From a virus (lineage: Duplodnaviria; Heunggongvirae; Uroviricota; Caudoviricetes), in the IMG/VR virus record IMGVR_UViG_3300042341_001208: a stretch of DNA of 64,000 nucleotides. One strand, written 5' to 3'. The notes under the pieces were generated by a model. The model worked only from the letters and a program-made list of their open reading frames with translations. It was not told the origin of the DNA and did no database searches. The position numbers were made by a program, and so were the translations under genes. Positions 7,251 through 60,590 of this stretch are shown piece after piece; position 1 is the stretch's first letter, and each line of letters begins with the position of its first letter.

Positions 7251-10200
7251 ATGGCTCAAAAGTATTTGAGCAAAGCTTTGGCTTTCGCTTTAACCTTGTT
7301 TGCAACACAAGGAAATCTTCATGCAGCATGCGGGAATCTCACACCGAGTTTCAGTAATGCATCCAACAAAACCTGTGGTATACCTCAGGTAATTACACTT
7401 ACCAATACTTCCACTGGAAACAGTCGAAATGTAGCCACCTACAAGTGGTATGTGGGTACCACACTGCTGAGCACACAAGTTGGCAAATCCACCCAAAAAT
7501 ACACCATCAACACTGCAGGTAGCTATACCTTCAAGTTGGTGGCGATAGATACGGGTAAGGTGGGCTGTAAAGACAGCACAAGCACTACCATTACCATTTC
7601 GGCATCTGTTCCGAGAATTTTGGATGGCAATAGAGTAAATACCTATTCTCCCATTTGGGAAAATTGTATAAGTTCATTGGGGGTTCCTGACACCTTTGGT
7701 ATAAATATCAAACCTCAGGATTCATTGCGAAATTACACCATAGTTTGGGGGGATGGCACCGGTAATTCTACTGGCACTTTACTGCTTAGCAGCCAATCCC
7801 TCTACCATAAGTATAATTCACTAGGACAATTTACTTTATTAATCATCGGAACAAAGGGAAGTTGCACTGATACCCTTCGAGGTGTGGTGTCGAATGAAAG
7901 AAATCCTGTGGCTGGAATTGTGGGTCCACCAACAGGAACCAATGCAGGTTGTGTGCCCATTCGCATGCGTTTTATCAATAACTCTTCCTTAAGCTCACCT
8001 AGCACCACTTTTACCTGGGATTTTGGCAATGGCGAAACCATAGTAAGGGGATTCAATACCCACAAAGACACTTTATTTTATACCTATAAGCGCTTTTTGT
8101 GTAATGGCATCGTGAAACTTACTCAAACCAATAATTGTGGTTCGAGTTTTGCCACCTGGAACCCAATCATGGCTTCCTCTAAGGATACTGCCATTATTGC
8201 GCCGACCAATCCGACCAACTGCGATCTTGCTGTACCTTTTACGTTTAACAATACCTCTCAAAATCGTTTTTGTAGCACGCCAAACAATAAGAAATACCTC
8301 TGGGTTTGGGGCGACGGAACCAATTCTGGTTGGAGTACTTCTTCTGCTTCGCAGTCTAAAACCTACAGCAAGCGCGGTGTGTACCAGGTCTTGCTGATTG
8401 ATTCAAATGGCTGCGGTAAAGATACTGCAAGGTATACCTTGCGTATCGATAGCATGCCTACCATTTCTGCAGGCCCAGCGTCGGCTGCAGGATGCTCACC
8501 TTTGGTGGTAAACTTCAGAGACAACAGCATAAATGCAACTTCTAGAAATTGGGATTTTGGATATGCAACACCAACAAGCAGTGCGCAAAACCCAACCCAT
8601 ACCTATCAAACAGGTGGTACATATAGAGCAGTGCTGACAGTAGCCAACAATTGTGGATCATTAAAAGATACTGTCCTTATTACTGTCAAACAAAAAGTAA
8701 AGGCAAACTTCAATACACCGCTTACTGGCTGTGCTCCATTAACACAGAAATGGACCAATACATCTGTCAAAGGATTGGCAGGAACCCCTACATATTTCTG
8801 GGATTTTGGGGACGGAACAACTTCTACCCAGGTGAATCCTCCAGATAAAACTTACTCTACGTTAGGGACATATACCATTACACTCATTGCTACAGACTCA
8901 TGCGGTAAGGATACCATTAAAAAGACGTTTACCGTCCGTGGTAAGCCCTCTGCTACAATTACTTTGTTATCTTCAAGCCGGTGTGTGGGCAGCACTTTAG
9001 ATATTCGCTTTGTAACCTCACCCGTAAATACAGCTTCAGTTATCTGGGGTGATGGAACCAATGGCAGCAGTTATTTCGGATTGGGTGGTTCAGTTGACCG
9101 CACGGTTTCCAGAAAATACGACAGTCTGCGCACCTACAGATTTGGGGTAGTTATGGTGGATCCAAGCGGTTGCCGAGACACCAATTACCTAAACATTGCA
9201 ATGGATCCAAGGCCTACGATGAACTATACCTACACCACAACCAATGGTTGTGGTCCTTTGGATGTTACATTTACCAATACCAGTGCGCACAATGGAGGGG
9301 GTAACATCAACCAAATGAAGTTCTTATGGAACTTTAGTAATGGTATATTGGCTTACAGCAAAGATACTGCAGCTAGGTTCTTGCCGTTTAAAACAAGAGA
9401 CTCTATTTATCCCGTTAAATTAATTGGAACAAACGCCTTTGGCTGCAGAGATTCCATTACCAAAACGGTTCGAGTTTATCCAAAACCATTGAGTAAATTT
9501 AGTATTAGTGAAAAGGATGGTTGTGCACCTTTGGATATTACTACTACGAACAATTCTACTCCATATGACACGGGTTCTATAAACATAATGAAGTTTATAT
9601 GGGACTTTGGCAACGGCAGGAAAGCGTTTGGTAAAGATACTGCTGCTCGATTCTTAGCCAGTAAAACAAAAGATACTGTGTATACTGTTAGTCTGATATC
9701 TATTTCTGAACATGGTTGCCGAGATACCAGTTCAACCACAGTGCGTATTTATCCAAAACCTAAAGCCTTATTTACCAGAAGTAAAACTGAAGGTTGCAAA
9801 CCACTCGGGGTTACCTATGTCAACCAAAGTGTACCCTACGATACCGGCAATATATCAATAATGAGTTTTGCTTGGGATTTAGGAAATAGAATTACCTCAT
9901 TCGCTACAGAACCTGTGGGTATCTATAATGATGCGATAAACAAAGATACTACTTATAAGGTACGTTTGATTGCCACTAGTGAGCACGGATGCAAGGATAC
10001 TGCAAATTCCACTGTACTGTTACATCCGAATCCGGTGATTAAATTTGATATGAGCCGCACCAATGGCTGCGGTCCATTGCCTGTGAGCTTCTCGAACAAG
10101 AGCATCAACGGCGATGCATTTACTTGGGAGTTTGGCGTATATGGAACTGATACCGCAAAGAGTCCTAGTAAGGTATTCTATGGCCGCGATATTTTTGACT

Positions 10201-12344
10201 CAGTAGTAGTGGTGAAGCTTAGCGCGATGAGCAAATTTGGCTGCTTGAGTGATACGCTAAAAGACGAAGTGACGGTTTTTGGATTACCTATTGCCAACTA
10301 TCTAGTTTCAACAGATACCTTCTGTTTCCCTGACCTGACGCAGTTTTTGAACCAAAGTTTGGCTTCCTACAACTACACTTGGGATTTGGGCGATGGCACT
10401 GTAACAGGAACTACAAACCCCAAACATTTCTTCAAGAAAAGCTCAAGTCCATTTAGTGATACTACCTATTTCATCAAACTTGTTGCTACAAGCCCTTACG
10501 GATGTAAGGACACCGCAAACGGCAGTATGACCGTATTGCCTTACCCTATTCCAAAATTCAGTGTTGACAATCCTGCGGGTTGTGCGTCACACACAGTGAA
10601 GTTCAACAACCAGTCGGTAAACGTGTTGAATTACCTGTGGGTATTTGGAGATGGATATACATCAACCGATGTGAACCCTACCCATACCTTTATAAATACC
10701 GGTGCGAATGATACGGCGTATCAGGTTGTTCTTTATACCTACTCTTTGGATTGTGTAGACTCTACTAGTATTTGGATACCAGTTTACAAGCCCTCGTATT
10801 CATTCTTCAGAACGGACCGGGTAAATCCATGTGATGCTGGATATTTTAAATTCCAGAGCTTTGGCGAAAATGCGCCAATTGTGAAGTACAATTTTGGTGA
10901 TGGTAGCACATCAACTTTTCCCAACCTAACGCATTTATTCCCAACCTCACCTTACACCGATACAAGCTTCATCGTTACACTATACACCACAAGCAATCGC
11001 GGTTGCACAGACAGCTTTAAACGCACAGTTACGCTCCCACAGCGACTTTCTATCGGAATGAAAGACACCAGTTATGCGCTATGTGCTCCGACGGTAATTC
11101 AGTTTACAAACTACACAAGGGGTGCACGCACATATATTTGGGACTTTGGAGATAATGGAGGAAGTTCTCAGAAGAACCCAATTTATGAATACCAAAAACC
11201 GGGCTTATACGCATATAAGTTGTTTGCCTTTGACGCAAATGGGTGTATTGACAGTCAGGTTTCAAACGGCACTGTTCGTGTGGATGTGAGTCCTAAAGCG
11301 GATTTTGACTTTAGTCCTGGTAAAGGCCGCATGCCAAATGACAACCGTATTTTCTTTACTGACAAGAGCCGCAGTGTGATACCACTGACCTATTTCTGGG
11401 ATTTCTCGGATCCAGCGGGTATACCTGCAACGAGTACGATTCAAAATGCAACCCACGATTTTAGCGACTCTGGAGACTATAAAATCTGTTTGACGGTAGA
11501 TAATGGGGGTTGTAAGAATATATTTTGCAATTTTGTACGCATCGATCCGGCATTTCCAACCCCAGATTTCTCGGTGGGTGGGGATTCGGGTTGCCCACCT
11601 CTTACCGTGCAGTTTACCAACCTTTCTGTGAACTCTGACCGCTATATATGGTTCTTTGGTGACGGTGAAAGAAGCGAGGACAAAGACCCAGTCCATACCT
11701 ATAAGTACAGCGGATATTACGACGTGATTTTGATCGCAAAAGGTCCAGGGGGTGAGGGTAAAACGGAGAAGAAGCAGTTCATAAAAGTATTGAATGCACC
11801 ATTCACGTATTTCAATCTCACGCCCTCTATATTGTACCTTCCTGATGCCAAATTCACAACTCGAAACCTGACTACTGGAGCTGTAGGATATCAGTGGAAT
11901 GTGTACAACAGCAGCACTAGAAATCGAGTTGGGAATAGCCTTTTGGTGAATCCCTATTTCCAAGTAAACGATACGGGGCATTATGATGTGGAATTGATTT
12001 CAGTAAGCAGTCAGGTCTGTTATGATACCCTATTGTTGCCCAAGCCCATCTACGTGAATCCACGTGGCATATTGCATGTACCGGATGCCTTCACACCTAC
12101 CAATGATGAACGCAACGATGTGTTTAAACCAAGCGCGATAAACGTGCAAAAGGATTTCTATCTCTTCCAGATCTATAACAGATGGGGTGAAATCGTATTC
12201 GAAACCAAAGACCCCGATGAGGGTTGGGACGGCCGTAAAAAGGGCAAAATATGCCAAAGTGGAGTCTATGTATATAAAATCAATGCAAGACTCTTCAGCG
12301 GGGATGATATTTCAGCGGATGGTGTGGTTCACTTGATTCGATAG
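7251..12344 (+). CDS. giant secreted PKD-repeat protein with T9SS (gliding-motility-type) C-terminal sorting domain
   Basis: Signal peptide MAQKYLSKALAFALTLFATQGNLHAAC; at least 12 PKD-like repeats (GC.PL.V.F.N.S...W.FGDGT...NP.H.Y...G.Y.V.L.A...GC.DT); C-terminus LHVPDAFTPTNDERNDVFKP...YNRWGEIVFET...GWDG...GVYVY matches CHU_C/T9SS type-B CTD; TAG stop. Confidence 0.8.
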   Translation: MAQKYLSKALAFALTLFATQGNLHAACGNLTPSFSNASNKTCGIPQVITLTNTSTGNSRNVATYKWYVGTTLLSTQVGKSTQKYTINTAGSYTFKLVAIDTGKVGCKDSTSTTITISASVPRILDGNRVNTYSPIWENCISSLGVPDTFGINIKPQDSLRNYTIVWGDGTGNSTGTLLLSSQSLYHKYNSLGQFTLLIIGTKGSCTDTLRGVVSNERNPVAGIVGPPTGTNAGCVPIRMRFINNSSLSSPSTTFTWDFGNGETIVRGFNTHKDTLFYTYKRFLCNGIVKLTQTNNCGSSFATWNPIMASSKDTAIIAPTNPTNCDLAVPFTFNNTSQNRFCSTPNNKKYLWVWGDGTNSGWSTSSASQSKTYSKRGVYQVLLIDSNGCGKDTARYTLRIDSMPTISAGPASAAGCSPLVVNFRDNSINATSRNWDFGYATPTSSAQNPTHTYQTGGTYRAVLTVANNCGSLKDTVLITVKQKVKANFNTPLTGCAPLTQKWTNTSVKGLAGTPTYFWDFGDGTTSTQVNPPDKTYSTLGTYTITLIATDSCGKDTIKKTFTVRGKPSATITLLSSSRCVGSTLDIRFVTSPVNTASVIWGDGTNGSSYFGLGGSVDRTVSRKYDSLRTYRFGVVMVDPSGCRDTNYLNIAMDPRPTMNYTYTTTNGCGPLDVTFTNTSAHNGGGNINQMKFLWNFSNGILAYSKDTAARFLPFKTRDSIYPVKLIGTNAFGCRDSITKTVRVYPKPLSKFSISEKDGCAPLDITTTNNSTPYDTGSINIMKFIWDFGNGRKAFGKDTAARFLASKTKDTVYTVSLISISEHGCRDTSSTTVRIYPKPKALFTRSKTEGCKPLGVTYVNQSVPYDTGNISIMSFAWDLGNRITSFATEPVGIYNDAINKDTTYKVRLIATSEHGCKDTANSTVLLHPNPVIKFDMSRTNGCGPLPVSFSNKSINGDAFTWEFGVYGTDTAKSPSKVFYGRDIFDSVVVVKLSAMSKFGCLSDTLKDEVTVFGLPIANYLVSTDTFCFPDLTQFLNQSLASYNYTWDLGDGTVTGTTNPKHFFKKSSSPFSDTTYFIKLVATSPYGCKDTANGSMTVLPYPIPKFSVDNPAGCASHTVKFNNQSVNVLNYLWVFGDGYTSTDVNPTHTFINTGANDTAYQVVLYTYSLDCVDSTSIWIPVYKPSYSFFRTDRVNPCDAGYFKFQSFGENAPIVKYNFGDGSTSTFPNLTHLFPTSPYTDTSFIVTLYTTSNRGCTDSFKRTVTLPQRLSIGMKDTSYALCAPTVIQFTNYTRGARTYIWDFGDNGGSSQKNPIYEYQKPGLYAYKLFAFDANGCIDSQVSNGTVRVDVSPKADFDFSPGKGRMPNDNRIFFTDKSRSVIPLTYFWDFSDPAGIPATSTIQNATHDFSDSGDYKICLTVDNGGCKNIFCNFVRIDPAFPTPDFSVGGDSGCPPLTVQFTNLSVNSDRYIWFFGDGERSEDKDPVHTYKYSGYYDVILIAKGPGGEGKTEKKQFIKVLNAPFTYFNLTPSILYLPDAKFTTRNLTTGAVGYQWNVYNSSTRNRVGNSLLVNPYFQVNDTGHYDVELISVSSQVCYDTLLLPKPIYVNPRGILHVPDAFTPTNDERNDVFKPSAINVQKDFYLFQIYNRWGEIVFETKDPDEGWDGRKKGKICQSGVYVYKINARLFSGDDISADGVVHLIR

Positions 12345-12787: not shown

Positions 12788-13690
12788 ATGTTACAATTAA
12801 ATTTAGCAGACTCAGATAAGTCACAGATCAAATTTAAACCATCTGCATTTCCAGACGGCCAGCAATCAATCACTTTAGCTCTGTCCACAATCTCAGATCT
12901 AGAAATATCTTGCACAATCAAGTCCAGATTAAATTCTTTCAGGGATTTAGAACTCATAGTCTGCGCAGCAGCTGCATTGAGAGAAGCTGGAATGGAAAGA
13001 ATTCACCTTTATATTCCATACTGTCTAGGCGGAAGATCTGACATCAAATTTGAAGAAGGTGGCTTAAACTACATCAAGAGTGTAATTGCACCTATCATCA
13101 ATTTACAAAAATTTACTTCTGTTACCGTCATGGATGCTCACTCGATAGCTCTAGAAAATTGCATTGATAATTTGAAAAAGCTAGACAATTCTTATCTTGC
13201 AAAATGGGCAATCAAGGATCTATCTTCAGAAGGAGGAGATTTCAAATTGGTCTCTCCTGATGCTGGAGCACTAAAGAAAATATTCTCAACAGCTAAATCT
13301 ATCGGATATAAAGGAGAAATAATAGTTGCTGAAAAAGTTAGAGATTTATCTACCGGAAAAATTATTCACACCAAGGTACCTATAAACGTTTATGATGCAG
13401 ATAAAGATTTTATCATTATAGATGATATCTGTGACGGTGGGAGAACATTCATAGAAATCGCCAAGGCTATAGAAGAAATGAGATCTTTAAGTTCAGTGGT
13501 TCATCCAGATAAGCACGGAAAAAATTACCTTATCGTAACTCACGGCATCTTCAGCGCAGGATTTGAAGAACTTAGTAAATATTTTGATAGAATTTATACC
13601 ACCAATTCTATCTCCGAAATAAACGAGTCTGAAAATTACAAAGGTGCTGAATTTGATAAACAATTTGTTAAACAACTAAACGTATTCTAA
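12788..13690 (+). CDS. prs: ribose-phosphate pyrophosphokinase (PRPP synthetase)
   Basis: Start set to ATG 12788 just after the promoter motif; motifs VTVMDAHS, KLVSPDAGALKK, IIIDDICDGGRTF (PRTase-type PRPP loop), LIVTHGIFS. Confidence 0.75.
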   Translation: MLQLNLADSDKSQIKFKPSAFPDGQQSITLALSTISDLEISCTIKSRLNSFRDLELIVCAAAALREAGMERIHLYIPYCLGGRSDIKFEEGGLNYIKSVIAPIINLQKFTSVTVMDAHSIALENCIDNLKKLDNSYLAKWAIKDLSSEGGDFKLVSPDAGALKKIFSTAKSIGYKGEIIVAEKVRDLSTGKIIHTKVPINVYDADKDFIIIDDICDGGRTFIEIAKAIEEMRSLSSVVHPDKHGKNYLIVTHGIFSAGFEELSKYFDRIYTTNSISEINESENYKGAEFDKQFVKQLNVF

Positions 13691-13691
13691 A

Positions 13692-14165
13692 ATGAAAGAA
13701 ACACTAGAATTGAGAATGTATGGATTAGTTCCATATAACTTAAGCCCCATCCAGCAAGGGATCCAATTTGGACACGCAGTTGTTGAGTATGGGTTAACCC
13801 ATTTCGGAGAAAAAAATTACCGGGATTGGGCTAACAATCATAAGACCTTTATCATTCTCAATGGAGGGACTACTAATAATTCCATAGATAAAGAAACAGG
13901 AAATCCAAAAGGAACTTTAAATCAGCATGCGGTAAACCTTAGAGATATGGGGATTCCTTTTTGCACCTTTTATGAGCCTGACTTAGGGGATCAATTAACA
14001 GCAGTAGTTTTTCTAGTAGACGAACATGTCTTCAACAGAGAAAAATATCCGGATCCAAGAGATCCATTTAATCAGGATTGGGCTTGGTCTGAGCATCTTA
14101 GCACAGAAGAACTTTCTAGAGTTTTGCAAATGAGAGACTTTTTAAAACAATTTAGATTAGCATAA
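13692..14165 (+). CDS. PTH2-like (peptidyl-tRNA hydrolase 2 family) protein, divergent
   Basis: LRMYGLVPYNLSPIQQGIQFGHAV and FYEPDLGDQLTAVVFL parallel the KMILVVRNDL...AAQCSHA and DAG..T.l.igP segments of PTH2; paralog of the TAG-containing ORF at 25811. Confidence 0.4.
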   Translation: MKETLELRMYGLVPYNLSPIQQGIQFGHAVVEYGLTHFGEKNYRDWANNHKTFIILNGGTTNNSIDKETGNPKGTLNQHAVNLRDMGIPFCTFYEPDLGDQLTAVVFLVDEHVFNREKYPDPRDPFNQDWAWSEHLSTEELSRVLQMRDFLKQFRLA

Positions 14166-19008: not shown

Positions 19009-20538
19009 ATGTTTAAATGTAATTCACTATTCTACACAGACGGCTACAAAATTGGCCACAAAAGAATGCTAGCACCAGGAACAACTCGTTTATACGGAAC
19101 CTGGATTCCACGAAGTATTAAACACGCTCCAAAAGGAGTTAAAAAAATCGTATCGTTTGGCCAGCAACTAGCTGTTAAATGGTTACACGATGAATTCGAA
19201 GAAAATTTCTTCAAGCTTCCTTTAGAAGAAGCAATGGAATTCGGAAATGATATGGCAATGTATCTCGGCCTCGAGTATGATGCTTCTCATTTCGAAGCTC
19301 TCCACAAATTAGGTTACTTGCCTATCAAAGTTAAATCTTTACCAGAAGGTATCGAAACTCTTCCAAATGTTCCACACATGACCTTCATTAATACCGTGGA
19401 TGGATTTGCTTGGTTAACCCTTTATTTGGAAACCATCATCTCTTCATTAGCTTGGAAGCCTTCAACATCAGCTACAATCGCTTTACAGTACAAAAGAAAC
19501 CTGATCGAATGGGTAAGAAAAACAGACCCTAAAAACATCTGGTTAGTTCCTTTCCTAGCTCACGACTTCTCGGCTAGAGGTTTGTCTCCTTGGGACATGT
19601 TAGCAAGCGGTTTAGGACACGCTACATCATTCAGAGGTTCAGACACAATAGTTTGTATCCCAGCAGCTCGATACTTCTACAACGAGCCTAAAAACGAGGT
19701 CTGCATCAATTCTGTAAACGCTTCAGAACACTCAGTATCTACCACCAAAATTTTCACAGTCGGCGAACAACAAATGATAGCAGACTGGTTAAGAGAATTC
19801 GACAAAGGTATCCTTTCAATCGTTTCAGACACATTCGATTTATGGACACTAATCACCAAATATTTACCTGCCAACAAAGAGGCTATCATGGCCAGAGACG
19901 GTAAATTGGTTATCAGACCTGACTCAGGAGACCCAGTAGATATTATTTGCGGATTAGAAAATAAAGTTCTTGAGGAAGGAGTGGGATATAAAGAAGAATA
20001 CAAAGAAAGCCCAGAATACAAAGGAGTTATCGAATTACTTTGGGACATCTTCGGAGGTACAATCAACGAAGAAGGTTACAAAGTACTTGATCCTCACATC
20101 GGAGCAATCTACGGGGACTCTATTACCTTGGACAGACAAATCCAAATCTACGAAAGATTAGCAGCTAAAGGATTTGCAACTACCAATATCGTTTTAGGTA
20201 TCGGTTCTTACACCTACCAAATGAACACCAGAGACACCTTAGGCTTCGCAGCTAAAGGAGCATGGTTCGAAGTAGAAGAAAACGGTACTAAAGTAGGCTA
20301 CGACATCTACAAAGATCCTATCACAGACGATGGAACTAAGAAATCCTTAAAAGGACTTATTAGAGTCGATGAAGTTTCAGTAACTTCCGAGGAAACTGGA
20401 ATTACTTATACTAAGTATGAAGTAAAAACCCAATGTACCCCAGAACAAGAAGAAGGAGGCATCTTACAAACCATCTACGAAAATGGTAAATTCTACAATC
20501 AAACTACATTAACTGAAGTTAGATCAAAATTAAACTAA
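19009..20538 (+). CDS. nadV: nicotinamide phosphoribosyltransferase (NAMPT/NadV)
   Basis: LFYTDGYKIGH (TDSYK motif), LPIKVKSLPEGIETLPNVP, HDFSARGLS, FRGSDTI, VSDTFDLW, IRPDSGDPVD, GAIYGDSITLD all parallel NAMPT blocks. Confidence 0.85.
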   Translation: MFKCNSLFYTDGYKIGHKRMLAPGTTRLYGTWIPRSIKHAPKGVKKIVSFGQQLAVKWLHDEFEENFFKLPLEEAMEFGNDMAMYLGLEYDASHFEALHKLGYLPIKVKSLPEGIETLPNVPHMTFINTVDGFAWLTLYLETIISSLAWKPSTSATIALQYKRNLIEWVRKTDPKNIWLVPFLAHDFSARGLSPWDMLASGLGHATSFRGSDTIVCIPAARYFYNEPKNEVCINSVNASEHSVSTTKIFTVGEQQMIADWLREFDKGILSIVSDTFDLWTLITKYLPANKEAIMARDGKLVIRPDSGDPVDIICGLENKVLEEGVGYKEEYKESPEYKGVIELLWDIFGGTINEEGYKVLDPHIGAIYGDSITLDRQIQIYERLAAKGFATTNIVLGIGSYTYQMNTRDTLGFAAKGAWFEVEENGTKVGYDIYKDPITDDGTKKSLKGLIRVDEVSVTSEETGITYTKYEVKTQCTPEQEEGGILQTIYENGKFYNQTTLTEVRSKLN

Positions 20539-23648: not shown

Positions 23649-24380
23649 ATGTTTAAATTTTATGAAGTTGGAGGAAAAATAAGAGACGAAATTTTAGAAT
23701 TATCTTCTAAAGATGTTGATTATGTAGCAGTTCCGAAAGAAGAATTACTAGATACAGTTGAGAAGGCAGAAGATATGTTCAGCATGTTAGAATCTTTTCT
23801 AAGAGTAGAAAAATTTGAGATCTTCTTGGTAACCCCAGACTGTTTTACAATTAGAGCAAAATTCCCAGCAGGACACAAATACTCAGGGGTTGCAGACTTT
23901 GTAATGGCCAGAAAGGAAATTGGTTATATTCCAGGAACTAGAACCCCAATTGTTAAGCCGGGAACCCTATTTGACGATCTTCAGAGAAGAGATTTTACCC
24001 TAAACGCTTTAGCAAAAGACGAGGACGGAACCATAATCGATTTCTTTGGAGGAATAGAGGATCTAAAGAAAAACCGTTTAAAAACTCCACTAGACTGCAA
24101 AATAACTTTTGATGACGATCCGCTTAGAATTCTTAGGGCCATCAGATTTTGTATAACTAAAGGGTTTTGGATTGGACCCTATATGGACGGGGTAATTCAG
24201 GATTACGACTACGAAGGAAAAATGGGGGTAGTTTCTATGGAGAGAATAAGAGAAGAATTGTTCAAATGTTTCAAACACGATACATTAAAAACCCTCAAAA
24301 CACTTCACGAATACCCAGCCCTAAGAAACTACATTTTTGAAAAAAATACACTTTGGTTAAAACCCACAATGGAGCAATAA
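23649..24380 (+). CDS. tRNA nucleotidyltransferase (CCA-adding enzyme/poly(A) polymerase family) head-neck domain
   Basis: YEVGGKIRDEIL..SKDVDYV (GGxVRD..D.D) and RRDFTLNALAKDEDGTIIDFFGGIEDL...DDPLRILRAIRF are class-II CCA-enzyme signatures; only 243 aa (minimal form). Confidence 0.7.
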   Translation: MFKFYEVGGKIRDEILELSSKDVDYVAVPKEELLDTVEKAEDMFSMLESFLRVEKFEIFLVTPDCFTIRAKFPAGHKYSGVADFVMARKEIGYIPGTRTPIVKPGTLFDDLQRRDFTLNALAKDEDGTIIDFFGGIEDLKKNRLKTPLDCKITFDDDPLRILRAIRFCITKGFWIGPYMDGVIQDYDYEGKMGVVSMERIREELFKCFKHDTLKTLKTLHEYPALRNYIFEKNTLWLKPTMEQ

Positions 24381-24385
24381 AATAT

Positions 24386-25072
24386 ATGATTTACGTATCA
24401 ATAGACATCGAAACTACAGGACTAAATCCTGAAACTTGCCAAATCCTTTCTATAGGAGCAGTTATAGAGGACACTCAAAAACAATTGGCTTTCGAGGAAA
24501 TTCCGAAATTCCATTGCGCAATACTGAAAAATGAAAGGGATATAATCTCCGGTGAGATTTATGCTTTGAATATGAATAGGGATTTGATAGAAAGCATCAC
24601 CTACTATTCTACAGCTAAAGATCAAGATGAAAAGAATGATCTAGTTCATTTTACAGGAATGCAGTTTGTTAGAGAAGAAGATATTGCAGAACATTTTTTC
24701 CAATTCCTTTATCGGAACGGATTCAAGCCAAACGAGTCTGATCTACCCCTGAATAAAAAAATTAAAATAATAAATGGAATATCTTATCCTGTTTTGGATT
24801 CTTCTGTAAAGCCAATCACCATAAATGTAGCTGGGAAAAATTTCTCTGGATTTGATAGAAAATTTCTAGATTTACTTCCTAGATGGAAGCAACTAATCAG
24901 AACAAGAAGTAGAGTTATAGATCCAGGTGTATTGTTTGTAGACTGGGAAAATGATGACGCAGTTCCTTCTTTAGATTCCTGCAAAAAAAGAGCACTAATA
25001 GAAGGAGTGGTTACCCATAATGCTTTAGAGGATGCTTGGGATGTTATTCAAGTCTTAAGAACAAAATACTAA
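24386..25072 (+). CDS. DEDDh 3'-5' exonuclease (DnaQ/RNase T-like)
   Basis: Exo I SIDIETTGL, Exo II-like NFSGFDRKFL, Exo III THNALEDAWD; start placed at in-frame ATG 24386 (track gives 24353, overlapping upstream gene). Confidence 0.6.
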   Translation: MIYVSIDIETTGLNPETCQILSIGAVIEDTQKQLAFEEIPKFHCAILKNERDIISGEIYALNMNRDLIESITYYSTAKDQDEKNDLVHFTGMQFVREEDIAEHFFQFLYRNGFKPNESDLPLNKKIKIINGISYPVLDSSVKPITINVAGKNFSGFDRKFLDLLPRWKQLIRTRSRVIDPGVLFVDWENDDAVPSLDSCKKRALIEGVVTHNALEDAWDVIQVLRTKY

Positions 25073-25656
25073 TGAAAATAATCTATTTAGACATAGACGG
25101 AGTTCTTAATTGTGAAAAAGCATACCGAGATGGATTTTGCAAATATCAAGAATGGCCAGATACCAAAAGGGAGGATGGTAAAAATTACCACCAGACTTTT
25201 TATCCCCCGGCTAAGGACCTTCTAAATAAGCTTATTCTAGAAACAGGTGCTAAGGTTGTTGTCTCTTCTACCTGGAGACATTCGGGTTTAGAATTTATTA
25301 AAAACGTTTGGACTCAAGAGAAAATGGAAGGAGAAATCATAGGGATAACCCCTTCCTTTAGAGGAGACATTGAAGGGTATACAATTCCTAGAGGATGTGA
25401 GATTGAATATCACCTTGAAAAAGAATTAGGATTTCATCACATCAATTGGGACAAAGACACTCAGCAAGAATATATTGACAAATCTAACGTCGATAATTAC
25501 ATTATCATAGACGACGATTCAGATATGTTGTACACGCAAAGAAATCATTTTGTTCATGTCTTACCTTCTCCTAGGAACAAAGAGGGATTTAACGAAAAAT
25601 ATTTTGAAGAAGCACTAAAAAAATTATCAAAAACAGTTATAGATTTGAACTACTGA
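25072..25656 (+). CDS. HAD-superfamily hydrolase (nucleotidase/polynucleotide phosphatase-like)
   Basis: Start at in-frame ATG 25072 (MKIIYLDIDGVLN = DxDGV motif I) overlapping previous stop; track start 25036 adds 12 unlikely residues. Confidence 0.5.
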   Translation: MKIIYLDIDGVLNCEKAYRDGFCKYQEWPDTKREDGKNYHQTFYPPAKDLLNKLILETGAKVVVSSTWRHSGLEFIKNVWTQEKMEGEIIGITPSFRGDIEGYTIPRGCEIEYHLEKELGFHHINWDKDTQQEYIDKSNVDNYIIIDDDSDMLYTQRNHFVHVLPSPRNKEGFNEKYFEEALKKLSKTVIDLNY

Positions 25657-25664
25657 CCGTATAT
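25655..25664 (+). promoter_or_regulatory. GACCGTATAT promoter-like motif driving the tRNA-like gene
   Basis: ctGACCGTATATttaaatgtaac, overlaps TGA stop of upstream gene; 21 nt upstream of tRNA-like 5' end. Confidence 0.5.
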
Positions 25665-25685
25665 TTAAATGTAACAAAAACAAAT

Positions 25686-25769
25686 GCTCTGAGAAATTAA
25701 TTTGACATTGGTAGTCAAGCCAGCTTCTAAACCTGGTTTTTAGGGGTTCGATACCTCTTCAGAGCACCA
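25686..25769 (+). tRNA. tRNA-like gene with CUA anticodon (putative amber suppressor), non-canonical 8-9 nt insert between acceptor and D stems, encoded CCA
   Basis: Acceptor GCTCTGA/TCAGAGC + A + CCA; D arm TTGAC-ATTGGTA-GTCAA (GG present); anticodon arm CCAGC-TTCTAAA-CCTGG (one C-C mismatch), anticodon CTA; T arm AGGGG-TTCGATA-CCTCT; GACCGTATAT motif 21 nt upstream. Confidence 0.45.
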
Positions 25770-25810
25770 AAGATGAAACTTTTAAAACAAAAAGATATAT
25801 AATAAACAAT

Positions 25811-26172
25811 ATGAAATAGATTAACAAATTTCAAGAAACAAAACTGGTAACTATTACCAGATCCGATATCCATCCAGGATATCAAATTCCTCAAACTGCT
25901 CACTCTATCGCAGATTTTGCATACGAGCATCCGGAAGCATTTAAAGAATGGAAAGAGACATCAAACTCTGTCATCTGCTTATCCGTACCATCAGAGGAAA
26001 AACTACTCGACCTTTATTCAAAATTATCAGGACAAACTCCGACGACCAAGTTCTTCGAGCCTGACATCAACCAATGGACTTCTATCTGTTTATACGGAAG
26101 CCCCGAGGTTAGGAAAAAACTTTCACATTTACCATTAGCACTTAAAAAAATCGAAGACTATGTTATAGATTA
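25811..26172 (+). CDS. PTH2-like peptidyl-tRNA hydrolase ORF with in-frame TAG at codon 3 (ATG AAA TAG then 117 sense codons)
   Basis: Downstream of TAG (25817-25819) the frame stays open to TAA 26170-26172 with no ATG/GTG/TTG inside; KLVTITRSDIHPGYQIPQTAHS, EAFKEWKETSNSVICLSVPSEEKLLDLYSKL, FFEPDINQWTSICLYGSPEVRKKLSHLPL align block by block to human PTRH2. Confidence 0.5.
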
Positions 26173-26192: not shown

Positions 26193-26744
26193 GTGGCCAT
26201 GAAATCTTGTCCACAAACAGAAACCCAATCTGTTCTAGATCACGGATTTTCTGTTAAGAATTACCTATTCGATCTTCTGGATCATTTAGAAAAAGGAACC
26301 CCTTTGAAGTTCGAATGGAAACTTCCAGAATGGATCTACGAGGAGAAAGAATTTATTCTTAAGACCTTACCCTCAAGACAAACTTTAAAGATATACACGG
26401 TGTTTCACGACTGTGGTAAGCCTCAGTGTTTAACCATCGACGAGGAGGGCAAAAGACACTTCCCTAATCACGCAGAGGCTTCGTACAATACTTTCATCAA
26501 TCTCTTTGATGATAATGCAGCAGCGGACTTAATACGCAGAGATATGGACATTCATTTACTTAAGTCCGAAGGTGTATCTGACTTCTGTAAAAATCCCAAT
26601 GCAATAGCATCTTTAATTACTGGACTTGCAGAGATTCACTCTAACGCTGAAATGTTTGGAGGGATCGAGAGCACTAGCTTTAAGATTAAGTGGAAGTGCA
26701 TCTCCAAGAGAGGAAAACAAATTATTCAAACCATAAAAAAATAA
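26193..26744 (+). CDS. possible HD-domain protein
   Basis: VLDHGF, VFHDCGK, FPNHAEAS, D-rich segment in HD-like order; weak. Confidence 0.35.
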   Translation: MAMKSCPQTETQSVLDHGFSVKNYLFDLLDHLEKGTPLKFEWKLPEWIYEEKEFILKTLPSRQTLKIYTVFHDCGKPQCLTIDEEGKRHFPNHAEASYNTFINLFDDNAAADLIRRDMDIHLLKSEGVSDFCKNPNAIASLITGLAEIHSNAEMFGGIESTSFKIKWKCISKRGKQIIQTIKK

Positions 26745-52057: not shown

Positions 52058-52873
52058 ATGAAGAAAAAAATAGCATTGGTGACAATGGCAAAAGATGAAG
52101 ACTTGTATATTCAAGAGTGGATCGATTATCATTTGAAATTAGGATTTGATAGTATATTCATCTATCAAAACAATTGGAGATTTAATAGTGAAGACTTGGA
52201 TGAAAGAGTTCATCTTTTAGAGTGGGATATAGATTCCCCAGGTGATATGGATAACACCCCATGGTTATCAAATAGAATTGCTATGGCTTACACTCATTTT
52301 GGAAAAACATATCACGATCAATTTGAATGGGCTGCTTTTATTGATGTCGACGGGTTTCTGGTATTGAAGCAAACGAACGATGTCAAAGAGTTTATTGCTA
52401 AATTTGACAACGTTCCCCAAAGACAAGTTGTAATCAATCTAGCACAATTTGGTGATAATGGTCATACCGAGTTTGATCCGAACAACGCAAGTGTATTGGA
52501 AAGATTTACTAAAAGATGGGGTAAACCTTATACTCACACCTACTATCATGTTGGACCAATATGCAAATTACACGAAAACTTTGATAAGCATGGGGTTCAT
52601 ATGGTACACGATGAAGAATGGATTGATGTAGATGGTGTAGTAGGCATAGGTACTTCAACTATTTTGAATTGCTCAAGAAAGGTATCATACGATACAGCAC
52701 AACTAAACCACTATTATACAAAGACTCTACCAGAATGGCTTAATAAATGTAATAGAACTCGTCCAGAGGGTGATCAGTATAGGAGTACGATTGAAGGTTT
52801 TTTTGAACACAACCACAACGATGTAGAAGACTTTCATGCTTTAAACTTTTTTAGAAATCAACAAACTTTGTAG
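52058..52873 (+). CDS. GT92 (DUF23)-like glycosyltransferase
   Basis: LVTMAKDEDLYIQEWIDYHLKLGFDSIFIYQNNW matches GT92 motif (EWIEYH..lGvdhfyiYdn); later DVDGF. Confidence 0.5.
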   Translation: MKKKIALVTMAKDEDLYIQEWIDYHLKLGFDSIFIYQNNWRFNSEDLDERVHLLEWDIDSPGDMDNTPWLSNRIAMAYTHFGKTYHDQFEWAAFIDVDGFLVLKQTNDVKEFIAKFDNVPQRQVVINLAQFGDNGHTEFDPNNASVLERFTKRWGKPYTHTYYHVGPICKLHENFDKHGVHMVHDEEWIDVDGVVGIGTSTILNCSRKVSYDTAQLNHYYTKTLPEWLNKCNRTRPEGDQYRSTIEGFFEHNHNDVEDFHALNFFRNQQTL

Positions 52874-52876
52874 ATT

Positions 52877-53617
52877 ATGGATATTATAAATACAAATTTG
52901 AATGTGCAAAAGATTAGTGATCCGTATGATATATGGATTATTGATAATTTTTTAAAAGAACATACTTTGAAAGGTATTAAAGATGCATGGCCATCTTATG
53001 AAAATGATGCTTGGTATGTTGGACACCCTGAAATAGACGGTAAAAAGAATATATTAGAACAGGGTATGCTAGGAATTAGTAAAGTAGGGGAAATGCCTGA
53101 ATTCATTAGCAATGTTATGAGTTATATCCACACAAAAGAGTTTACAGAAAGGATATCTAACCTTTTAAATTTACAAAACCTATTTCCAGATGAGCATATG
53201 AGATGGTCAGGTATGAGAACAATGCTTCCAAATTCATTCCAATTGATTCATAGTGATGCTAGAAAATCACCTAATTCAGGAATGCGTAAAGAGGTAACTT
53301 GTTTATTGTATCTGAATGAGAACTATAATAAAGAAAATGATGGCGGTTGTTTAGAAGTCTGGTCCGATGATATGTCAACTTGTATGCATGAAATTGAACC
53401 TATCTCAAATAGGTTTGTTGCTTTTTTAAACAGCGATACTTCCTACCATGGTGTACCAACTGTAAAATCAGAAAGAAAGTTAATTACATTCTCTATTTTA
53501 GCAAATGATAGTTCTACCGATCGATATAAAGCTCTATTCGTTGCAAGACCTACCGATTCTGTTGAAGTTGGAATCGAAGGTGTTAAAAGGTCACAAATAA
53601 AAGATATTAAAAAATAA
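52877..53617 (+). CDS. 2OG-Fe(II) oxygenase, prolyl 4-hydroxylase-like
   Basis: HSDA (HxD), RKEVTCLLYLNENYNKENDGGCLEVW (R..T.L.YLN...GGE..F) and YHGVPTVKSERK (distal His + basic 2OG ligand). Confidence 0.55.
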   Translation: MDIINTNLNVQKISDPYDIWIIDNFLKEHTLKGIKDAWPSYENDAWYVGHPEIDGKKNILEQGMLGISKVGEMPEFISNVMSYIHTKEFTERISNLLNLQNLFPDEHMRWSGMRTMLPNSFQLIHSDARKSPNSGMRKEVTCLLYLNENYNKENDGGCLEVWSDDMSTCMHEIEPISNRFVAFLNSDTSYHGVPTVKSERKLITFSILANDSSTDRYKALFVARPTDSVEVGIEGVKRSQIKDIKK

Positions 53618-60489: not shown

Positions 60490-60574
60490 GGAGAGGTGGC
60501 AGAGCGGTCTAATGCGGCAGTCTTGAAAACTGTTGAAGGTCACACTTCCGGGGGTTCGAATCCCTCCCTCTCCG
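60490..60574 (+). tRNA. tRNA-Ser (anticodon UGA)
   Basis: Acceptor GGAGAGG/CCTCTCC, anticodon arm GCAGT-CTTGAAA-ACTGT (anticodon TGA), long variable arm GAAGGTCACACTTCC, T loop TTCGAAT; 85 nt without CCA; starts 4 nt after upstream stop. Confidence 0.85.
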
Positions 60575-60590
60575 CTCTTTAAAAACTAAT

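What the first reader, a model, noticed from the sequence alone, without database searches (positions are those of the whole stretch)
25655..26172. Amber-suppressor-like tRNA(CUA) sits 41 nt upstream of a PTH2-like gene whose third codon is TAG
Positions 25686-25769 fold into a tRNA-like cloverleaf with a CUA anticodon, which would decode UAG. Acceptor: 7 bp + A + encoded CCA. D arm: TTGAC/GTCAA with a GG loop. Anticodon arm: loop TTCTAAA. T arm: TTCGATA loop. It is non-canonical: 9 nt instead of 2 separate the acceptor and D stems, and the anticodon stem has a C-C closing mismatch. 41 nt downstream, ATG(25811) AAA TAG opens an otherwise intact 117-codon frame ending at TAA 26172. That frame contains no ATG, GTG or TTG, so it is invisible to ordinary ORF finders. 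Its product aligns block by block with peptidyl-tRNA hydrolase PTH2 (KLVTITRSDI / QTAHS / FFEPDI..TSICLYG / LSHLPL). The sequence just before the ATG (ataaacaatATG) resembles other gene starts here (aaataacaatATG at 12788). The tRNA has its own GACCGTATAT promoter motif. Interpretation: a programmed amber read-through or stop-codon-recoding module, with a translation-quality-control enzyme made only when the phage suppressor tRNA is present. TAG reassignment with phage-borne suppressor tRNAs is established for several Bacteroidota-phage lineages. Here recoding cannot be global, because TAG also terminates at least two good ORFs (634-636, 12342-12344). That points to a gene-specific or temporally gated switch. 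An intact second PTH2-like paralog (13692..14165) has no TAG.
Basis: partly seen in the sequence, partly recalled or inferred. Interest (0 to 1): 0.9.

Follow-up and report, generated by a model that had tools for sequence, protein, structure and literature searches.

The report
Phage amber-suppressor tRNA gating one gene
A large phage carries an oddly shaped tRNA that reads the stop codon UAG, next to a tRNA-recycling-type gene whose third codon is UAG; every relative examined keeps this pairing although the genomes otherwise use the normal code, so it looks like a built-in one-gene translational switch that standard gene and tRNA finders miss.

Summary
Window 25686-25769 encodes a non-canonical tRNA with anticodon CUA. 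It has an 8-bp acceptor stem, a 4-bp T stem, a 4-bp anticodon stem with a 9-nt loop, and a short extra helix. Covariation in 22 distinct homologs supports this fold, yet ARAGORN and Rfam miss it. 41 nt downstream, ATG-AAA-TAG opens a gene with a Pth2 fold (pLDDT 92.8; TM about 0.7 to archaeal Pth2).

Every homolog I inspected keeps an in-frame TAG 1-8 codons after a start codon: 48 distinct sequences in the tabulated loci, then six huge phages and cultured Tenacibaculum phage pT24. Two mycobacteriophages (Bxz1, Myrna) show start codon-TAG-GTG. A tRNA(CUA) lies within 10 kb in about three quarters of loci.

The genomes are not recoded. The 64-kb window and a complete 634-kb relative show no other TAG-interrupted gene. 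Database homologs that show "Q" at this position are TAG translated under code 15.

Best reading: a dedicated suppressor licenses translation of one Pth2-like gene inside a tRNA-end repair cluster. Decoding, charging and the purpose of the gate remain inferred. I found no description of this in the searchable literature.

The parts
25655..25664 (+). GACCGTATAT promoter-like motif, 22 nt upstream of the tRNA 5' end. No second copy lies between the tRNA and the PTH2-like gene, so co-transcription is likely.
   Evidence: 15 matches (up to 1 mismatch) against 1.95 expected, all on the + strand, mostly in short intergenic gaps upstream of genes between 480 and 27730.
25686..25769 (+). Non-canonical tRNA(CUA). 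Acceptor 25686-25693 pairs with 25758-25765 (8 bp). A sits at 25694. The extra-helix strand is at about 25694-25697 and pairs with about 25737-25740. The D-like hairpin is 25702-25718 (5 bp, GG loop). The anticodon arm is 25720-25736 (4 bp plus a 9-nt loop). The T arm is 25743-25757 (4 bp, loop TTCGATA). The discriminator is A25766, followed by an encoded CCA at 25767-25769.
   Evidence: 85.9 bits with the family model; 94.2% of cells paired against 64% when shuffled, 0/500; extra helix: matched beats mismatched, 0/5000.
25727..25729 (+). Anticodon CTA (reads UAG), within loop C-TTCTAAA-C. U33, A37 and A38 are present.
   Evidence: CTA at the anticodon position of every family-member row in the model alignment.
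25811..26172 (+). Pth2-fold gene: ATG AAA TAG, then 117 codons, then TAA.
   Evidence: phrog_1866.
25817..25819 (+). In-frame TAG (codon 3), followed by ATT. The +4 nucleotide is A.
   Evidence: all 48 distinct homolog contexts have TAG; the +4 nucleotide is A in 40 and G in 6.
26193..26744 (+). HD-like partner gene immediately downstream. It is fused to the PTH2-like domain in some phages.
   Evidence: weak HD hit; conserved at about +350 nt in most loci; matches positions 90-267 of phrog_14850, whose N-terminal part matches the PTH2-like protein; pT24 BPT24_235 is a fusion-length CDS.
23649..24380 (+). CCA-adding tRNA nucleotidyltransferase (context: tRNA 3'-end repair and maturation cluster).
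   Evidence: (phrog_24229, E 4.5e-60).
24386..25072 (+). DEDD/RNase T-type 3'-5' exonuclease (context).
25072..25656 (+). HAD_SAK_2 phosphatase domain protein (the HAD domain of 'Swiss Army Knife' RNA repair proteins) (context).
   Evidence: E 1e-19.

Best explanation
The tRNA at 25686-25769 is a structurally unusual amber suppressor, and its main cis-linked client is the UAG at codon 3 of the adjacent Pth2-fold gene. Ribosomes start at ATG 25811. At UAG they either terminate through RF1, releasing only a dipeptide, or, if mature and charged tRNA(CUA) is available, insert an amino acid and make the full protein.

The rest of the genome uses TAG as an ordinary, rare stop codon. The pair therefore acts as a one-gene translational gate that ties production of the Pth2-like enzyme to the amount of functional suppressor tRNA. 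The same may hold for the HD partner gene that follows, which is fused to the Pth2-like domain in some phages.

The gate sits inside a tRNA 3'-end maturation and repair cluster: a CCA-adding enzyme, a 3'-5' exonuclease, a HAD phosphatase and an HD domain protein. The likeliest purpose is to couple a peptidyl- or aminoacyl-tRNA hydrolase to the state of the (phage) tRNA pool, or to suppressor activity itself.

Shown: the structure and covariation of the tRNA, the family-wide conservation of the early TAG, the genomic linkage, and the absence of global recoding.

Inferred: aminoacylation (amino acid unknown), actual decoding, co-transcription, and the physiological purpose.
For: (1) The early TAG is conserved across the family. 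Close relatives L002-L005 keep ATG AAA TAG ATT at 65-95% amino-acid identity. All 46 IMG/VR loci have ATG, 0-8 sense codons, then TAG. In the tabulated set there are 48 distinct contexts and all are TAG, although TAA ends 62 of 80 genes in the window. Huge phages LR745206 and LR756500/501/502/504 and cultured Tenacibaculum phage pT24 show the same leader. Mycobacteriophages Bxz1 and Myrna have ATG/GTG-TAG-GTG.

(2) The 735-kb phage LR756501 has a second in-frame TAG at codon 37, inside the conserved domain. That one must be decoded for the protein to be intact.

(3) Database homologs with 'Q' at this position are TAG in the DNA. No homolog with a sense codon there was seen.

(4) The tRNA family covaries. 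The family model scores 52-87 bits in 22 distinct sequences. With the revised structure 94.2% of cells pair, against 64.1% when shuffled (0/500) and 36-50% when slid. The 8th acceptor pair forms in 22 of 22 sequences with four pair types.

(5) tRNA and gene are linked. A tRNA(CUA), non-canonical or canonical, lies within 10 kb in about 34 of 46 IMG/VR loci, 28 of them confident and often 35-90 nt upstream. The same holds in pT24, Bxz1, Myrna, LR756500, LR756501 and L071. Searching from the tRNA side found 9 contigs, and 8 of them already carried the TAG gene.

(6) There is no global recoding. Coding coverage in the window is 0.915 (code 11), 0.925 (TAG as sense) and 0.928 (TGA-as-sense control). 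In LR745206 (634,780 bp) it is 0.864, 0.882 and 0.881, with no recoded 20-kb bin. That genome holds one family tRNA(CUA). Its only short-leader-plus-TAG gene is the Pth2-like one. Internal TAGs in long ORFs number 4, against 31 for the TGA control.

(7) The context suits suppression. A purine follows TAG in 46 of 48 contexts. The anticodon loop is YUCUAAA, as in efficient E. coli amber suppressors (own knowledge).
Against: There is no expression, processing, charging or peptide data. The amino acid inserted is unknown. Similarity of the canonical CUA tRNAs to typed tRNAs is inconsistent, pointing to Arg-, Gly/Lys- or Glu-like origins.

The codon after TAG is usually ATT (34 of 48), and it is GTG in the two mycobacteriophages checked. 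Initiation right after the TAG therefore cannot be excluded in those genomes.

Twelve of the 46 IMG/VR loci show no tRNA(CUA) within 10 kb. In LR745206 the tRNA lies 169 kb from the gene.

Only 64 kb of this phage is visible, and no structural genes are in view.

The conserved Tyr aligned to the catalytic Lys of archaeal Pth2 leaves the enzyme's chemistry uncertain (the residue's role is from my own knowledge of S. solfataricus Pth2).

Why a co-transcribed tRNA should gate its neighbour is not explained.
Confidence: 0.72

Rival explanations
1. Mini-ORF plus re-initiation. ATG-(N)1-8-TAG is a tiny leader ORF that terminates at UAG, the only RF1-exclusive stop. The Pth2-like protein then starts at the next codon (AUU, AUA or GUG), so that RF1 availability or peptidyl-tRNA drop-off at the leader tunes expression. 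This would resemble prfB autoregulation or the lambda bar minigenes. The tRNA(CUA) would have another role.
For: The codon after TAG is ATT or ATA in 36 of 48 contexts. It is GTG, the annotated start, in Bxz1 and Myrna. A two-codon minigene in front of a peptidyl-tRNA hydrolase is conceptually attractive (own knowledge of the bar minigenes and pth).
Against: In other members the next codon is GTA, GTT, AAC, ACT or another non-start codon. LR756501 carries a second TAG inside the conserved domain. This model does not explain why a CUA-anticodon tRNA is linked to the gene across phyla, nor why that tRNA covaries as a functional RNA.
Confidence: 0.12
2. Ordinary genome-wide TAG reassignment (code 15). 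Late genes outside the window would be full of in-frame TAGs, and the Pth2-like gene is just one recoded gene that happens to lie in an otherwise unrecoded early region.
For: Phage TAG-to-Gln recoding concentrated in late genes is established (Borges et al. preprint 10.1101/2021.08.26.457843; Peters et al. PMC9523058). Only 64 kb of accessory genes is visible here. Loci L033 and L009 gain more coverage with TAG as sense than with the TGA control.
Against: The complete 634.8-kb relative shows no recoding signal in any 20-kb bin, and fewer internal TAGs than the TGA control. About 80 window genes and most 20-kb loci show none. TAG terminates real genes here. pT24 and the cluster C mycobacteriophages are annotated and deposited under the standard code.
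Confidence: 0.08
3. The tRNA-like RNA is not a decoder. It would be a tRNA mimic used by the neighbouring repair enzymes, for example as a decoy or substrate for host anticodon or CCA-end nucleases, or as a regulator. The UAG would then be read at a low level by near-cognate host tRNAs.
For: It lies inside a tRNA repair cluster. Its architecture is non-canonical. Other odd tRNA-like RNAs occur in related loci.
Against: The CUA anticodon is invariant while the stems covary. Several lineages use a perfectly canonical tRNA(CUA) in the same position. The only codon conserved in the partner gene is exactly UAG.
Confidence: 0.06
4. Pseudogene or sequencing error: a CAG-to-TAG nonsense mutation in a dead gene.
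For: A single-locus view alone could not exclude it.
Against: TAG sits at the same place in every homolog inspected, across 30-95% identity, with an intact downstream frame and a confident Pth2 fold.
Confidence: 0.01

Closest known systems
Phage stop-codon recoding with phage-encoded suppressor tRNAs (genetic code 15, TAG to Gln; crAss-like, Lak and other gut phages)
   Same: A phage-borne tRNA(CUA) reads in-frame TAG during infection of a standard-code host. TAG is depleted as a stop codon. Recoding has been proposed to act as a regulatory device.
   Different: In those phages tens to hundreds of mostly late genes carry TAG. Here one gene family carries it, always within the first few codons, and the genomes are otherwise standard-code. 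The tRNA is structurally non-canonical. This module could explain why standard-code phages keep suppressors, which is the proposed first step towards recoding.
Gene-specific recoding and programmed read-through (selenocysteine UGA, pyrrolysine UAG, Qbeta A1, MuLV gag-pol)
   Same: A stop codon in a specific gene is decoded. For Sec and Pyl this is done by a dedicated, structurally unusual tRNA.
   Different: I noticed no SECIS/PYLIS-like element and no dedicated synthetase or elongation factor in the genes I annotated; I did not search for them systematically. The codon lies at the extreme N-terminus rather than at an active site or C-terminal extension. In different lineages the partner tRNA is either canonical or non-canonical.
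8/4 tRNAs, allo-tRNAs and 'irregular' tRNAs (Mukai et al. 2017, PMC5389517; review PMC7609411)
   Same: A 12-bp acceptor/T branch split 8/4. Some occur in phages. Some may be nonsense suppressors. Those papers note an extra loop between the acceptor and D stems in some irregular tRNAs. Allo-tRNAs work on bacterial ribosomes.
   Different: There is no long variable arm. The D hairpin (with GG) and T loop are normal. The anticodon stem is 4 bp, unpaired at 31-39. A short helix joins the acceptor-D connector to the variable region. The anticodon is fixed as CUA, and the tRNA is tied to one client gene.
Pth2 (PF01981) and the PTH2 genes noted in jumbo phages as RNA-repair or ribosome-rescue factors (Iyer et al. 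2021, PMC7824862)
   Same: Same fold and size. It occurs in jumbo phages next to RNA-repair genes.
   Different: That work does not mention the in-frame TAG or a suppressor tRNA. This family scores at the edge of the Pfam threshold and far below the NCBIfam equivalog cut-offs. It has Tyr where archaeal Pth2 has the catalytic Lys.
prfB (RF2) autoregulatory recoding and the lambda bar minigenes
   Same: An early in-frame stop codon makes expression of a translation-termination or recycling factor depend on how the ribosome handles that stop. Two-codon minigenes are linked to peptidyl-tRNA hydrolase physiology.
   Different: Those are, respectively, a +1 frameshift and toxic drop-off at a minigene. 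Here the frame is unchanged and a cognate suppressor tRNA is encoded alongside.

Membership tests
Canonical bacterial tRNA (Rfam RF00005 / ARAGORN) | Reaches the family's detection threshold | tested here: not met
   Rfam gives 16.9 bits against a gathering score of 29, and only locally. ARAGORN at default and at -ps80 finds nothing, and relaxed modes mis-assign the anticodon.
Canonical bacterial tRNA (Rfam RF00005 / ARAGORN) | 7-bp acceptor, 2-nt connector, 5-bp T stem, 5-bp anticodon stem with a 7-nt loop | tested here: not met
   The family has an 8-bp acceptor and a 4-bp T stem, a 4-bp anticodon stem with 31-39 unpaired in 19 of 22 sequences, and a long connector that pairs with the variable region.
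Canonical bacterial tRNA (Rfam RF00005 / ARAGORN) | GG in the D loop, a TTCGA-type T loop, U33, and a discriminator followed by CCA | tested here: met
   The window sequence has ATTGGTA, TTCGATA, U33 and A-CCA. GG and the T loop are conserved in the family. CCA is not encoded in most relatives.
Functional amber suppressor tRNA | CUA anticodon conserved while the stems covary | tested here: met
   CTA is at the anticodon position of every family-member row. The covariation score is 0.86 against 0.26 when shuffled.
Functional amber suppressor tRNA | Processed, aminoacylated and used on the ribosome | not testable with these tools
   This needs tRNA-seq or an acid gel, mass spectrometry, or a reporter assay.
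allo-tRNA / (8/4) tRNA | 8-bp acceptor plus 4-bp T stem | tested here: met
   Column 8 pairs with column 77 in 22 of 22 sequences (GC 10, AU 4, CG 4, GU 4). The former first T-stem pair is unpaired in 19 of 22.
allo-tRNA / (8/4) tRNA | Long variable arm (tRNASec/Ser-like) | tested here: not met
   The variable region is 4-7 nt.
tRNA-Pyl | 6-bp anticodon stem, small D loop without GG, 3-nt variable loop, 0-1 nt connector (features as summarised in PMC7609411) | tested here: not met
   Only the CUA anticodon is shared. GG is present, the anticodon stem is 4 bp and the connector is long.
Pth2 peptidyl-tRNA hydrolase (PF01981) | Sequence-profile match | tested here: met
   Pfam gives 24.0 bits against a cut-off of 23. 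The family profile hits PDB 2zv3 at E 2.2e-5. The NCBIfam Pth2 equivalog models are far below cut-off, at 18.6 against 126, so it is not an equivalog.
Pth2 peptidyl-tRNA hydrolase (PF01981) | Pth2 fold | tested here: met
   The AlphaFold model has pLDDT 92.8 and pTM 0.86. The top Foldseek PDB hits are all Pth2 (2zv3, 1wn2, 1q7s, 3erj, 1xty), with TM about 0.7 and E down to 1.8e-7.
Pth2 peptidyl-tRNA hydrolase (PF01981) | Catalytic residues (Lys18 and Asp86 of S. solfataricus Pth2; own knowledge) | tested here: inconclusive
   The second K of GKGK aligns to a nearly invariant Tyr in this family. An invariant Asp in the E-P-D motif lies near the expected position but was not aligned by HMMER.
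Code-15 (TAG-recoded) phage | Many genes with in-frame TAG; low code-11 coding density rescued by reading TAG as sense | tested here: not met
   Window coverage is 0.915, 0.925 and 0.928 (code 11, TAG as sense, TGA control). LR745206 gives 0.864, 0.882 and 0.881. Only the Pth2-like gene fits the short-leader-plus-TAG pattern. The unseen remainder of this phage's genome was not tested.

The most novel reading that the evidence does not exclude
A natural single-codon, single-gene genetic circuit that is conserved from Bacteroidota huge phages to mycobacteriophages. An orthogonal-looking tRNA(CUA), in many lineages a new five-helix 8/4 architecture, would serve as a live reporter of tRNA integrity: 3'-end maturation or repair, charging, and escape from host tRNA-targeting defences. 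It would license translation of a Pth2-HD tRNA-end hydrolase by decoding one early UAG. Such a module would also explain why standard-code phages maintain suppressor tRNAs, making it the stepping stone to full TAG reassignment.
Probability: 0.25. Interest if true: 0.95.

Novelty: new variant of a known kind. Interest (0 to 1): 0.88.

Why it matters
1. It would be a gene-specific amber-decoding system in phages that otherwise use the standard code. It spans very distant phage groups, including cultured and genetically tractable ones (Tenacibaculum phage pT24, cluster C mycobacteriophages). The idea is therefore directly testable.

2. It adds a tRNA architecture that ARAGORN and Rfam's tRNA model did not call here: 8/4 stems, a connector-to-variable-loop helix, and a 4-bp anticodon stem. 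Such a scaffold may interest genetic-code-expansion work.

3. It exposes systematic annotation errors. The gene is called truncated, called under code 15, or started at an internal codon, and the tRNA is missed or labelled 'tRNA-OTHER', 'Undet' or 'Ser'.

4. It gives suppressor tRNAs in non-recoded phages a selectable function. That fits the proposed evolutionary route to stop-codon reassignment: TAG depletion, then suppressor acquisition, then recoding.

5. It ties a Pth2-like/HD enzyme pair and a tRNA repair cluster to stop-codon decoding, which hints at a translation-surveillance or counter-defence role.

Tried and rejected
- ARAGORN at default, relaxed, intron and mitochondrial settings never gave a correct call.
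- Rfam gave only a sub-threshold tRNA hit.
- The exact anticodon-arm pattern in IMG/VR returned only two chance matches inside coding sequence, L052 and L053.
- My first structured DNA pattern used too short a second gap and missed most family members. The corrected pattern worked.
- I first took 'Q' at codon 3 in database homologs as evidence for Gln. I rejected this after finding that the DNA has TAG and the callers used code 15.
- Assigning the amino-acid identity of the CUA tRNAs by similarity to typed phage tRNAs was inconclusive. The best matches were Arg, Gly/Lys or Glu, all weak.
- I tested whether the in-frame TAG at 52871, between two ORFs, is a conserved read-through fusion. No relatives were retrieved, so this stays unresolved.
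- The literature on '4-bp anticodon stems' concerns the 27-43 pair, not 31-39, so I did not use it as a precedent.
- The genome-contig collection holds only one hit, a MAG contig that is probably a mis-binned phage, so there is no cellular reservoir.
- Literature searches for suppressor tRNA plus peptidyl-tRNA hydrolase, or plus Bxz1, found no description of this pairing.
- The sigma-70 promoter and terminator scan was uninformative for this Bacteroidota-type phage.
Full report
**1. What is in the sequence**

Positions 25686-25769 read GCTCTGAGAAATTAATTTGACATTGGTAGTCAAGCCAGCTTCTAAACCTGGTTTTTAGGGGTTCGATACCTCTTCAGAGCACCA. The sequence folds as a cloverleaf with MFE -25.5 kcal/mol and z -2.43 against shuffles. 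ARAGORN finds only a tRNA-Ser at 60490-60575 in the window. Even relaxed settings recover just the boundaries of the element, with a wrong anticodon. Rfam's tRNA model gives a local 16.9-bit hit, below the gathering score of 29.

41 nt downstream, ATG AAA TAG is followed by 117 sense codons and TAA (25811-26172). No ATG, GTG or TTG follows the TAG in that frame. In a stop-by-stop scan it is the only long open frame in the 64-kb window that has a start codon just before a stop and none after it.

The product passes Pfam PTH2 narrowly, at 24.0 bits against 23. A family profile hits PDB Pth2 2zv3 at E 2.2e-5. An AlphaFold model (pLDDT 92.8) superposes on archaeal and human Pth2 structures at TM about 0.7.

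It occurs 15 times against 1.95 expected, always on the + strand and mostly just upstream of genes. One copy ends 22 nt before the tRNA, and none lies between the tRNA and the gene.

**2. The TAG is a family-wide feature, not an accident**

The closest relatives keep ATG AAA TAG ATT while differing elsewhere. These are L002 (95% amino-acid identity), L003 (84%) and L004/L005 (65%).

A search of IMG/VR with the family alignment returned 46 loci, from contigs of 16-508 kb. In every one, the frame begins with ATG, then 0-8 sense codons, then TAG, and continues into the conserved K/ExKLxxITRxD core.

Database homologs that appear to start MKQI or MTHQV are not exceptions. Their DNA has TAG, and the gene callers used code 15.

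Tabulating these loci gave 48 distinct TAG contexts, all TAG. The next nucleotide is A in 40 and G in 6, and the next codon is ATT in 34. For comparison, TAA ends 62 of 80 genes in the window.

A tblastn search of deposited phage genomes extended the family further:
- Five more huge phages, LR756500 to LR756504 (two are the same 735-kb sequence).
- The cultured Tenacibaculum jumbo phage pT24.
- 207 Mycobacterium phage records. All those listed by name are Bxz1-like (cluster C) phages, at about 30% identity, mostly annotated 'peptidyl tRNA hydrolase'.

The leaders I read in these were:
- pT24: MK*ITK. Its annotated CDS starts internally.
- LR756500: MK*I.
- LR756502: MKN*I.
- LR756504: MT*I.
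- LR756501 (735 kb): MS*I, plus a second TAG at codon 37 inside the conserved domain.
- Bxz1: ATG TAG GTG, where GTG is the annotated start.
- Myrna: GTG TAG GTG, likewise.

**3. The tRNA belongs to a covarying, non-canonical family**

nhmmer and folding found look-alikes on the same strand near the gene in many loci. A covariance model built from 15 of them scores 52-87 bits on 22 distinct sequences, while ordinary tRNAs score 48 bits or less.

I counted base pairs on an alignment made with a model that did not contain the new pairs. That showed the following:
- Acceptor stem: 8 bp. The 8th pair forms in 22 of 22 sequences, as GC, AU, CG or GU.
- T stem: 4 bp.
- D-like hairpin: 5 bp with a GG loop, and all five pairs covary.
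- Anticodon stem: 4 bp.
- Overall: 94.2% of cells pair, against 64.1% when shuffled (0/500) and 36-50% in slid registers.

The '9-nt spacer' has the consensus G-A-N-N-N-T-A-A-T. Its variable triplet is complementary to the variable region 3' of the anticodon arm. Examples are GCT/AGC, ACC/GGT, GTT/AAC, GGTT/AACC, ATCT/AGAT, ACAT/ATGT, AACG/CGTT and TCC/GGA.
- In a fixed register, 71% of cells pair and all three pairs show double changes.
- With a flexible register, matched partners beat mismatched ones (mean 2.95 against 2.23; 0 of 5000 permutations).
- This fifth helix is short (2-4 bp), and I regard it as supported but provisional.

The anticodon is CTA in every family-member row of the model alignment. 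Most relatives do not encode CCA. The window copy does.

**4. tRNA and gene travel together**

Within the 10-kb flanks, a tRNA(CUA) is present in about 34 of the 46 IMG/VR loci. 28 of these are confident and 6 score lower. Many lie 35-90 nt upstream of the ATG, as in the window.

Several lineages use a canonical tRNA(CUA) instead: L006, L009, L010, L012, L043, L046 and L071. So do the following:
- pT24: annotated tRNA-Sup, 2.6 kb upstream.
- LR756500: 1.1 kb downstream.
- LR756501: two in tandem.
- Bxz1: annotated 'tRNA-OTHER', 300 nt downstream.
- Myrna: annotated tRNA-Ser but with anticodon CTA, 130 nt downstream.

Searching from the tRNA side gave the reciprocal result. A structured pattern plus the model found nine IMG/VR contigs with the non-canonical tRNA. 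Eight already carried the TAG gene, and only 4 kb of the ninth is held.

The canonical suppressors resemble different tRNA types. This suggests repeated recruitment, and that decoding the UAG matters more than which amino acid goes in. That last point is an inference.

**5. The genomes are not recoded**

In the window, ORFs of at least 100 aa cover 0.915 of the sequence under code 11, 0.925 with TAG as sense, and 0.928 with the TGA-as-sense control. The loci behave alike, apart from L033 and L009.

TAG terminates genuine genes here. One example is the PKD/CHU_C protein at 7251-12344, whose C-terminal sorting domain ends 18 residues before the TAG.

I downloaded the entire huge-phage genome LR745206.1 (634,780 bp):
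- Coverage is 0.864, 0.882 and 0.881 for the same three settings, with no recoded 20-kb bin.
- ARAGORN finds 59 tRNAs, none with CUA.
- The family model finds exactly one non-canonical tRNA(CUA), at 507,340-507,420, which is 169 kb from the gene.
- The Pth2-like gene (MNN*INETKL) is the only TAG case of 'short leader, stop, long frame without a start'.
- Internal TAGs in long ORFs number 4, against 31 for the TGA control.

**6. Genomic context**

The window is an accessory region of a jumbo or huge phage, with hints of a Bacteroidota host. Those hints are a CHU_C type IX secretion domain, NAD salvage genes, a ClpB-like ATPase and sugar-modifying enzymes.

The module sits in a tRNA-end cluster, in this order:
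- CCA-adding nucleotidyltransferase (23649-24380)
- DEDD 3'-5' exonuclease (24386-25072)
- HAD_SAK_2 phosphatase (25072-25656)
- the tRNA
- the Pth2-like gene
- an HD-like protein (26193-26744)

The HD-like gene follows the Pth2-like gene in most loci. PHROG 14850 and pT24 BPT24_235 show the two fused. Iyer et al. 2021 (PMC7824862) already noted PTH2 genes in jumbo phages as RNA-repair or ribosome-rescue factors, without mentioning a TAG or a suppressor.

**7. Interpretation**

The simplest account of four facts is that the tRNA decodes that UAG, so the enzyme is made only when functional suppressor is present. The four facts are:
- exclusive use of TAG;
- an invariant CUA anticodon on a covarying tRNA;
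- physical linkage of tRNA and gene across phyla;
- standard-code genomes.

Placing the codon at position 2-9 means that a failed read-through costs only a tiny peptide. The purine after the TAG and the YUCUAAA loop are what efficient amber suppression favours (own knowledge).

The main rival is a UAG-terminated mini-ORF with re-initiation at the next codon. It is helped by the frequent ATT, and by GTG in the mycobacteriophages. It is hurt by the non-start codons in other members, by the second, internal TAG in LR756501, and by its silence on why a CUA tRNA is linked.

The purpose of the gate is not established. The candidates are:
- matching a peptidyl- or aminoacyl-tRNA hydrolase to suppressor activity;
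- feedback control of suppression;
- a checkpoint on tRNA maturation or repair.

Because tRNA and gene seem to share a promoter, simple temporal gating is unlikely.

**8. Novelty**

Phage suppressor tRNAs and TAG recoding are known (Borges et al. preprint 10.1101/2021.08.26.457843; PMC9523058; PMC7886860). 8/4 and other irregular tRNAs are known (PMC5389517, PMC7609411). Jumbo-phage PTH2 genes are known (PMC7824862).

In the searchable literature I found no description of three things:
- a conserved early UAG in this gene family;
- its pairing with a dedicated tRNA(CUA) in standard-code phages;
- this tRNA architecture.

I class it as a new variant of a known kind, of high interest. All functional steps still await experiment.

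Noticed in passing
window 480-41033 (+), e.g. 3469, 4981, 12394, 12762, 15896, 18979, 20571, 23162, 25655: The GACCGTATAT motif occurs 15 times against about 2 expected. All copies are on the + strand, mostly 20-40 nt upstream of gene starts and concentrated in the first 28 kb. It is probably a phage-specific promoter class.
   Followed up: partly
L014 7963-8045; L024 9074-9144 and 9386-9469; L033 9696-9783; L006 6772-6845: A second family of tRNA-like RNAs. They have a good acceptor stem (AGTCAGG...) and T arm (CAGGTTCGAATCCTG) but no recognisable anticodon arm. They lie in the same neighbourhoods as the tRNA(CUA).
   Followed up: no
window 52058-53617 (+), TAG at 52871-52873: A 271-codon ORF ends in TAG and is followed, one codon later and in the same frame, by the ATG of a 246-codon ORF (2OG-Fe(II)-oxygenase-like PHROG hits). 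With a suppressor present this would give a read-through fusion. No relatives were retrieved to test conservation.
   Followed up: partly
L008 5851-6756; L048 9077-9994: In two loci a roughly 300-codon upstream ORF runs in frame, without its own stop, into the ATG-NNN-TAG leader. The same TAG therefore ends the upstream gene, and suppression would fuse it to the Pth2-like protein.
   Followed up: no
window 23649-25656 and 26193-26744: A tRNA 3'-end maturation and repair cluster surrounds the finding: a CCA-adding enzyme, a DEDD exonuclease, HAD_SAK_2 and an HD-like protein. PHROG 14850 and pT24 BPT24_235 are Pth2-like plus HD fusions.
   Followed up: partly
window 7251-12344 (+): A 1697-aa phage protein with at least eight PKD domains and a C-terminal CHU_C type IX secretion sorting domain. 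This points to a Bacteroidota host and possibly to host-machinery-dependent export.
   Followed up: no
window 12788-13690, 19009-20538: NAD+ salvage genes typical of jumbo phages: ribose-phosphate pyrophosphokinase and an NAPRTase-family enzyme.
   Followed up: no
window 13692-14165 (+): A possible very distant Pth2-like paralog. BLASTP against the TAG gene gives E 6e-4 at 18% identity, with shared Q..H and F-x-E-P-D-L motifs. It has no Pfam PTH2 hit and no in-frame TAG.
   Followed up: partly
L009 5835-5908; LR745206 407,364-407,437: ARAGORN reports tRNAs with apparent four-base anticodons (ttag, gtag) in related phages. These could be frameshift-suppressor-like tRNAs or mis-folds.
   Followed up: no
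L144 4463-4534 (Myrna); L139 2157-2229 (Bxz1); L138 4091-4909 (pT24): Probable annotation errors in deposited genomes. Myrna gene 86 is labelled tRNA-Ser, but ARAGORN reads anticodon CTA. The Bxz1 tRNA(CUA) is labelled 'tRNA-OTHER'. The pT24 Pth2-HD CDS is annotated from an internal start, downstream of its MK*I leader.
   Followed up: partly
L010 9097-9170 and 9177-9258: One locus carries a canonical and a non-canonical tRNA(CUA) in tandem, 7 nt apart. The latter has the unusual loop CACUAAA, with A at position 33.
   Followed up: no
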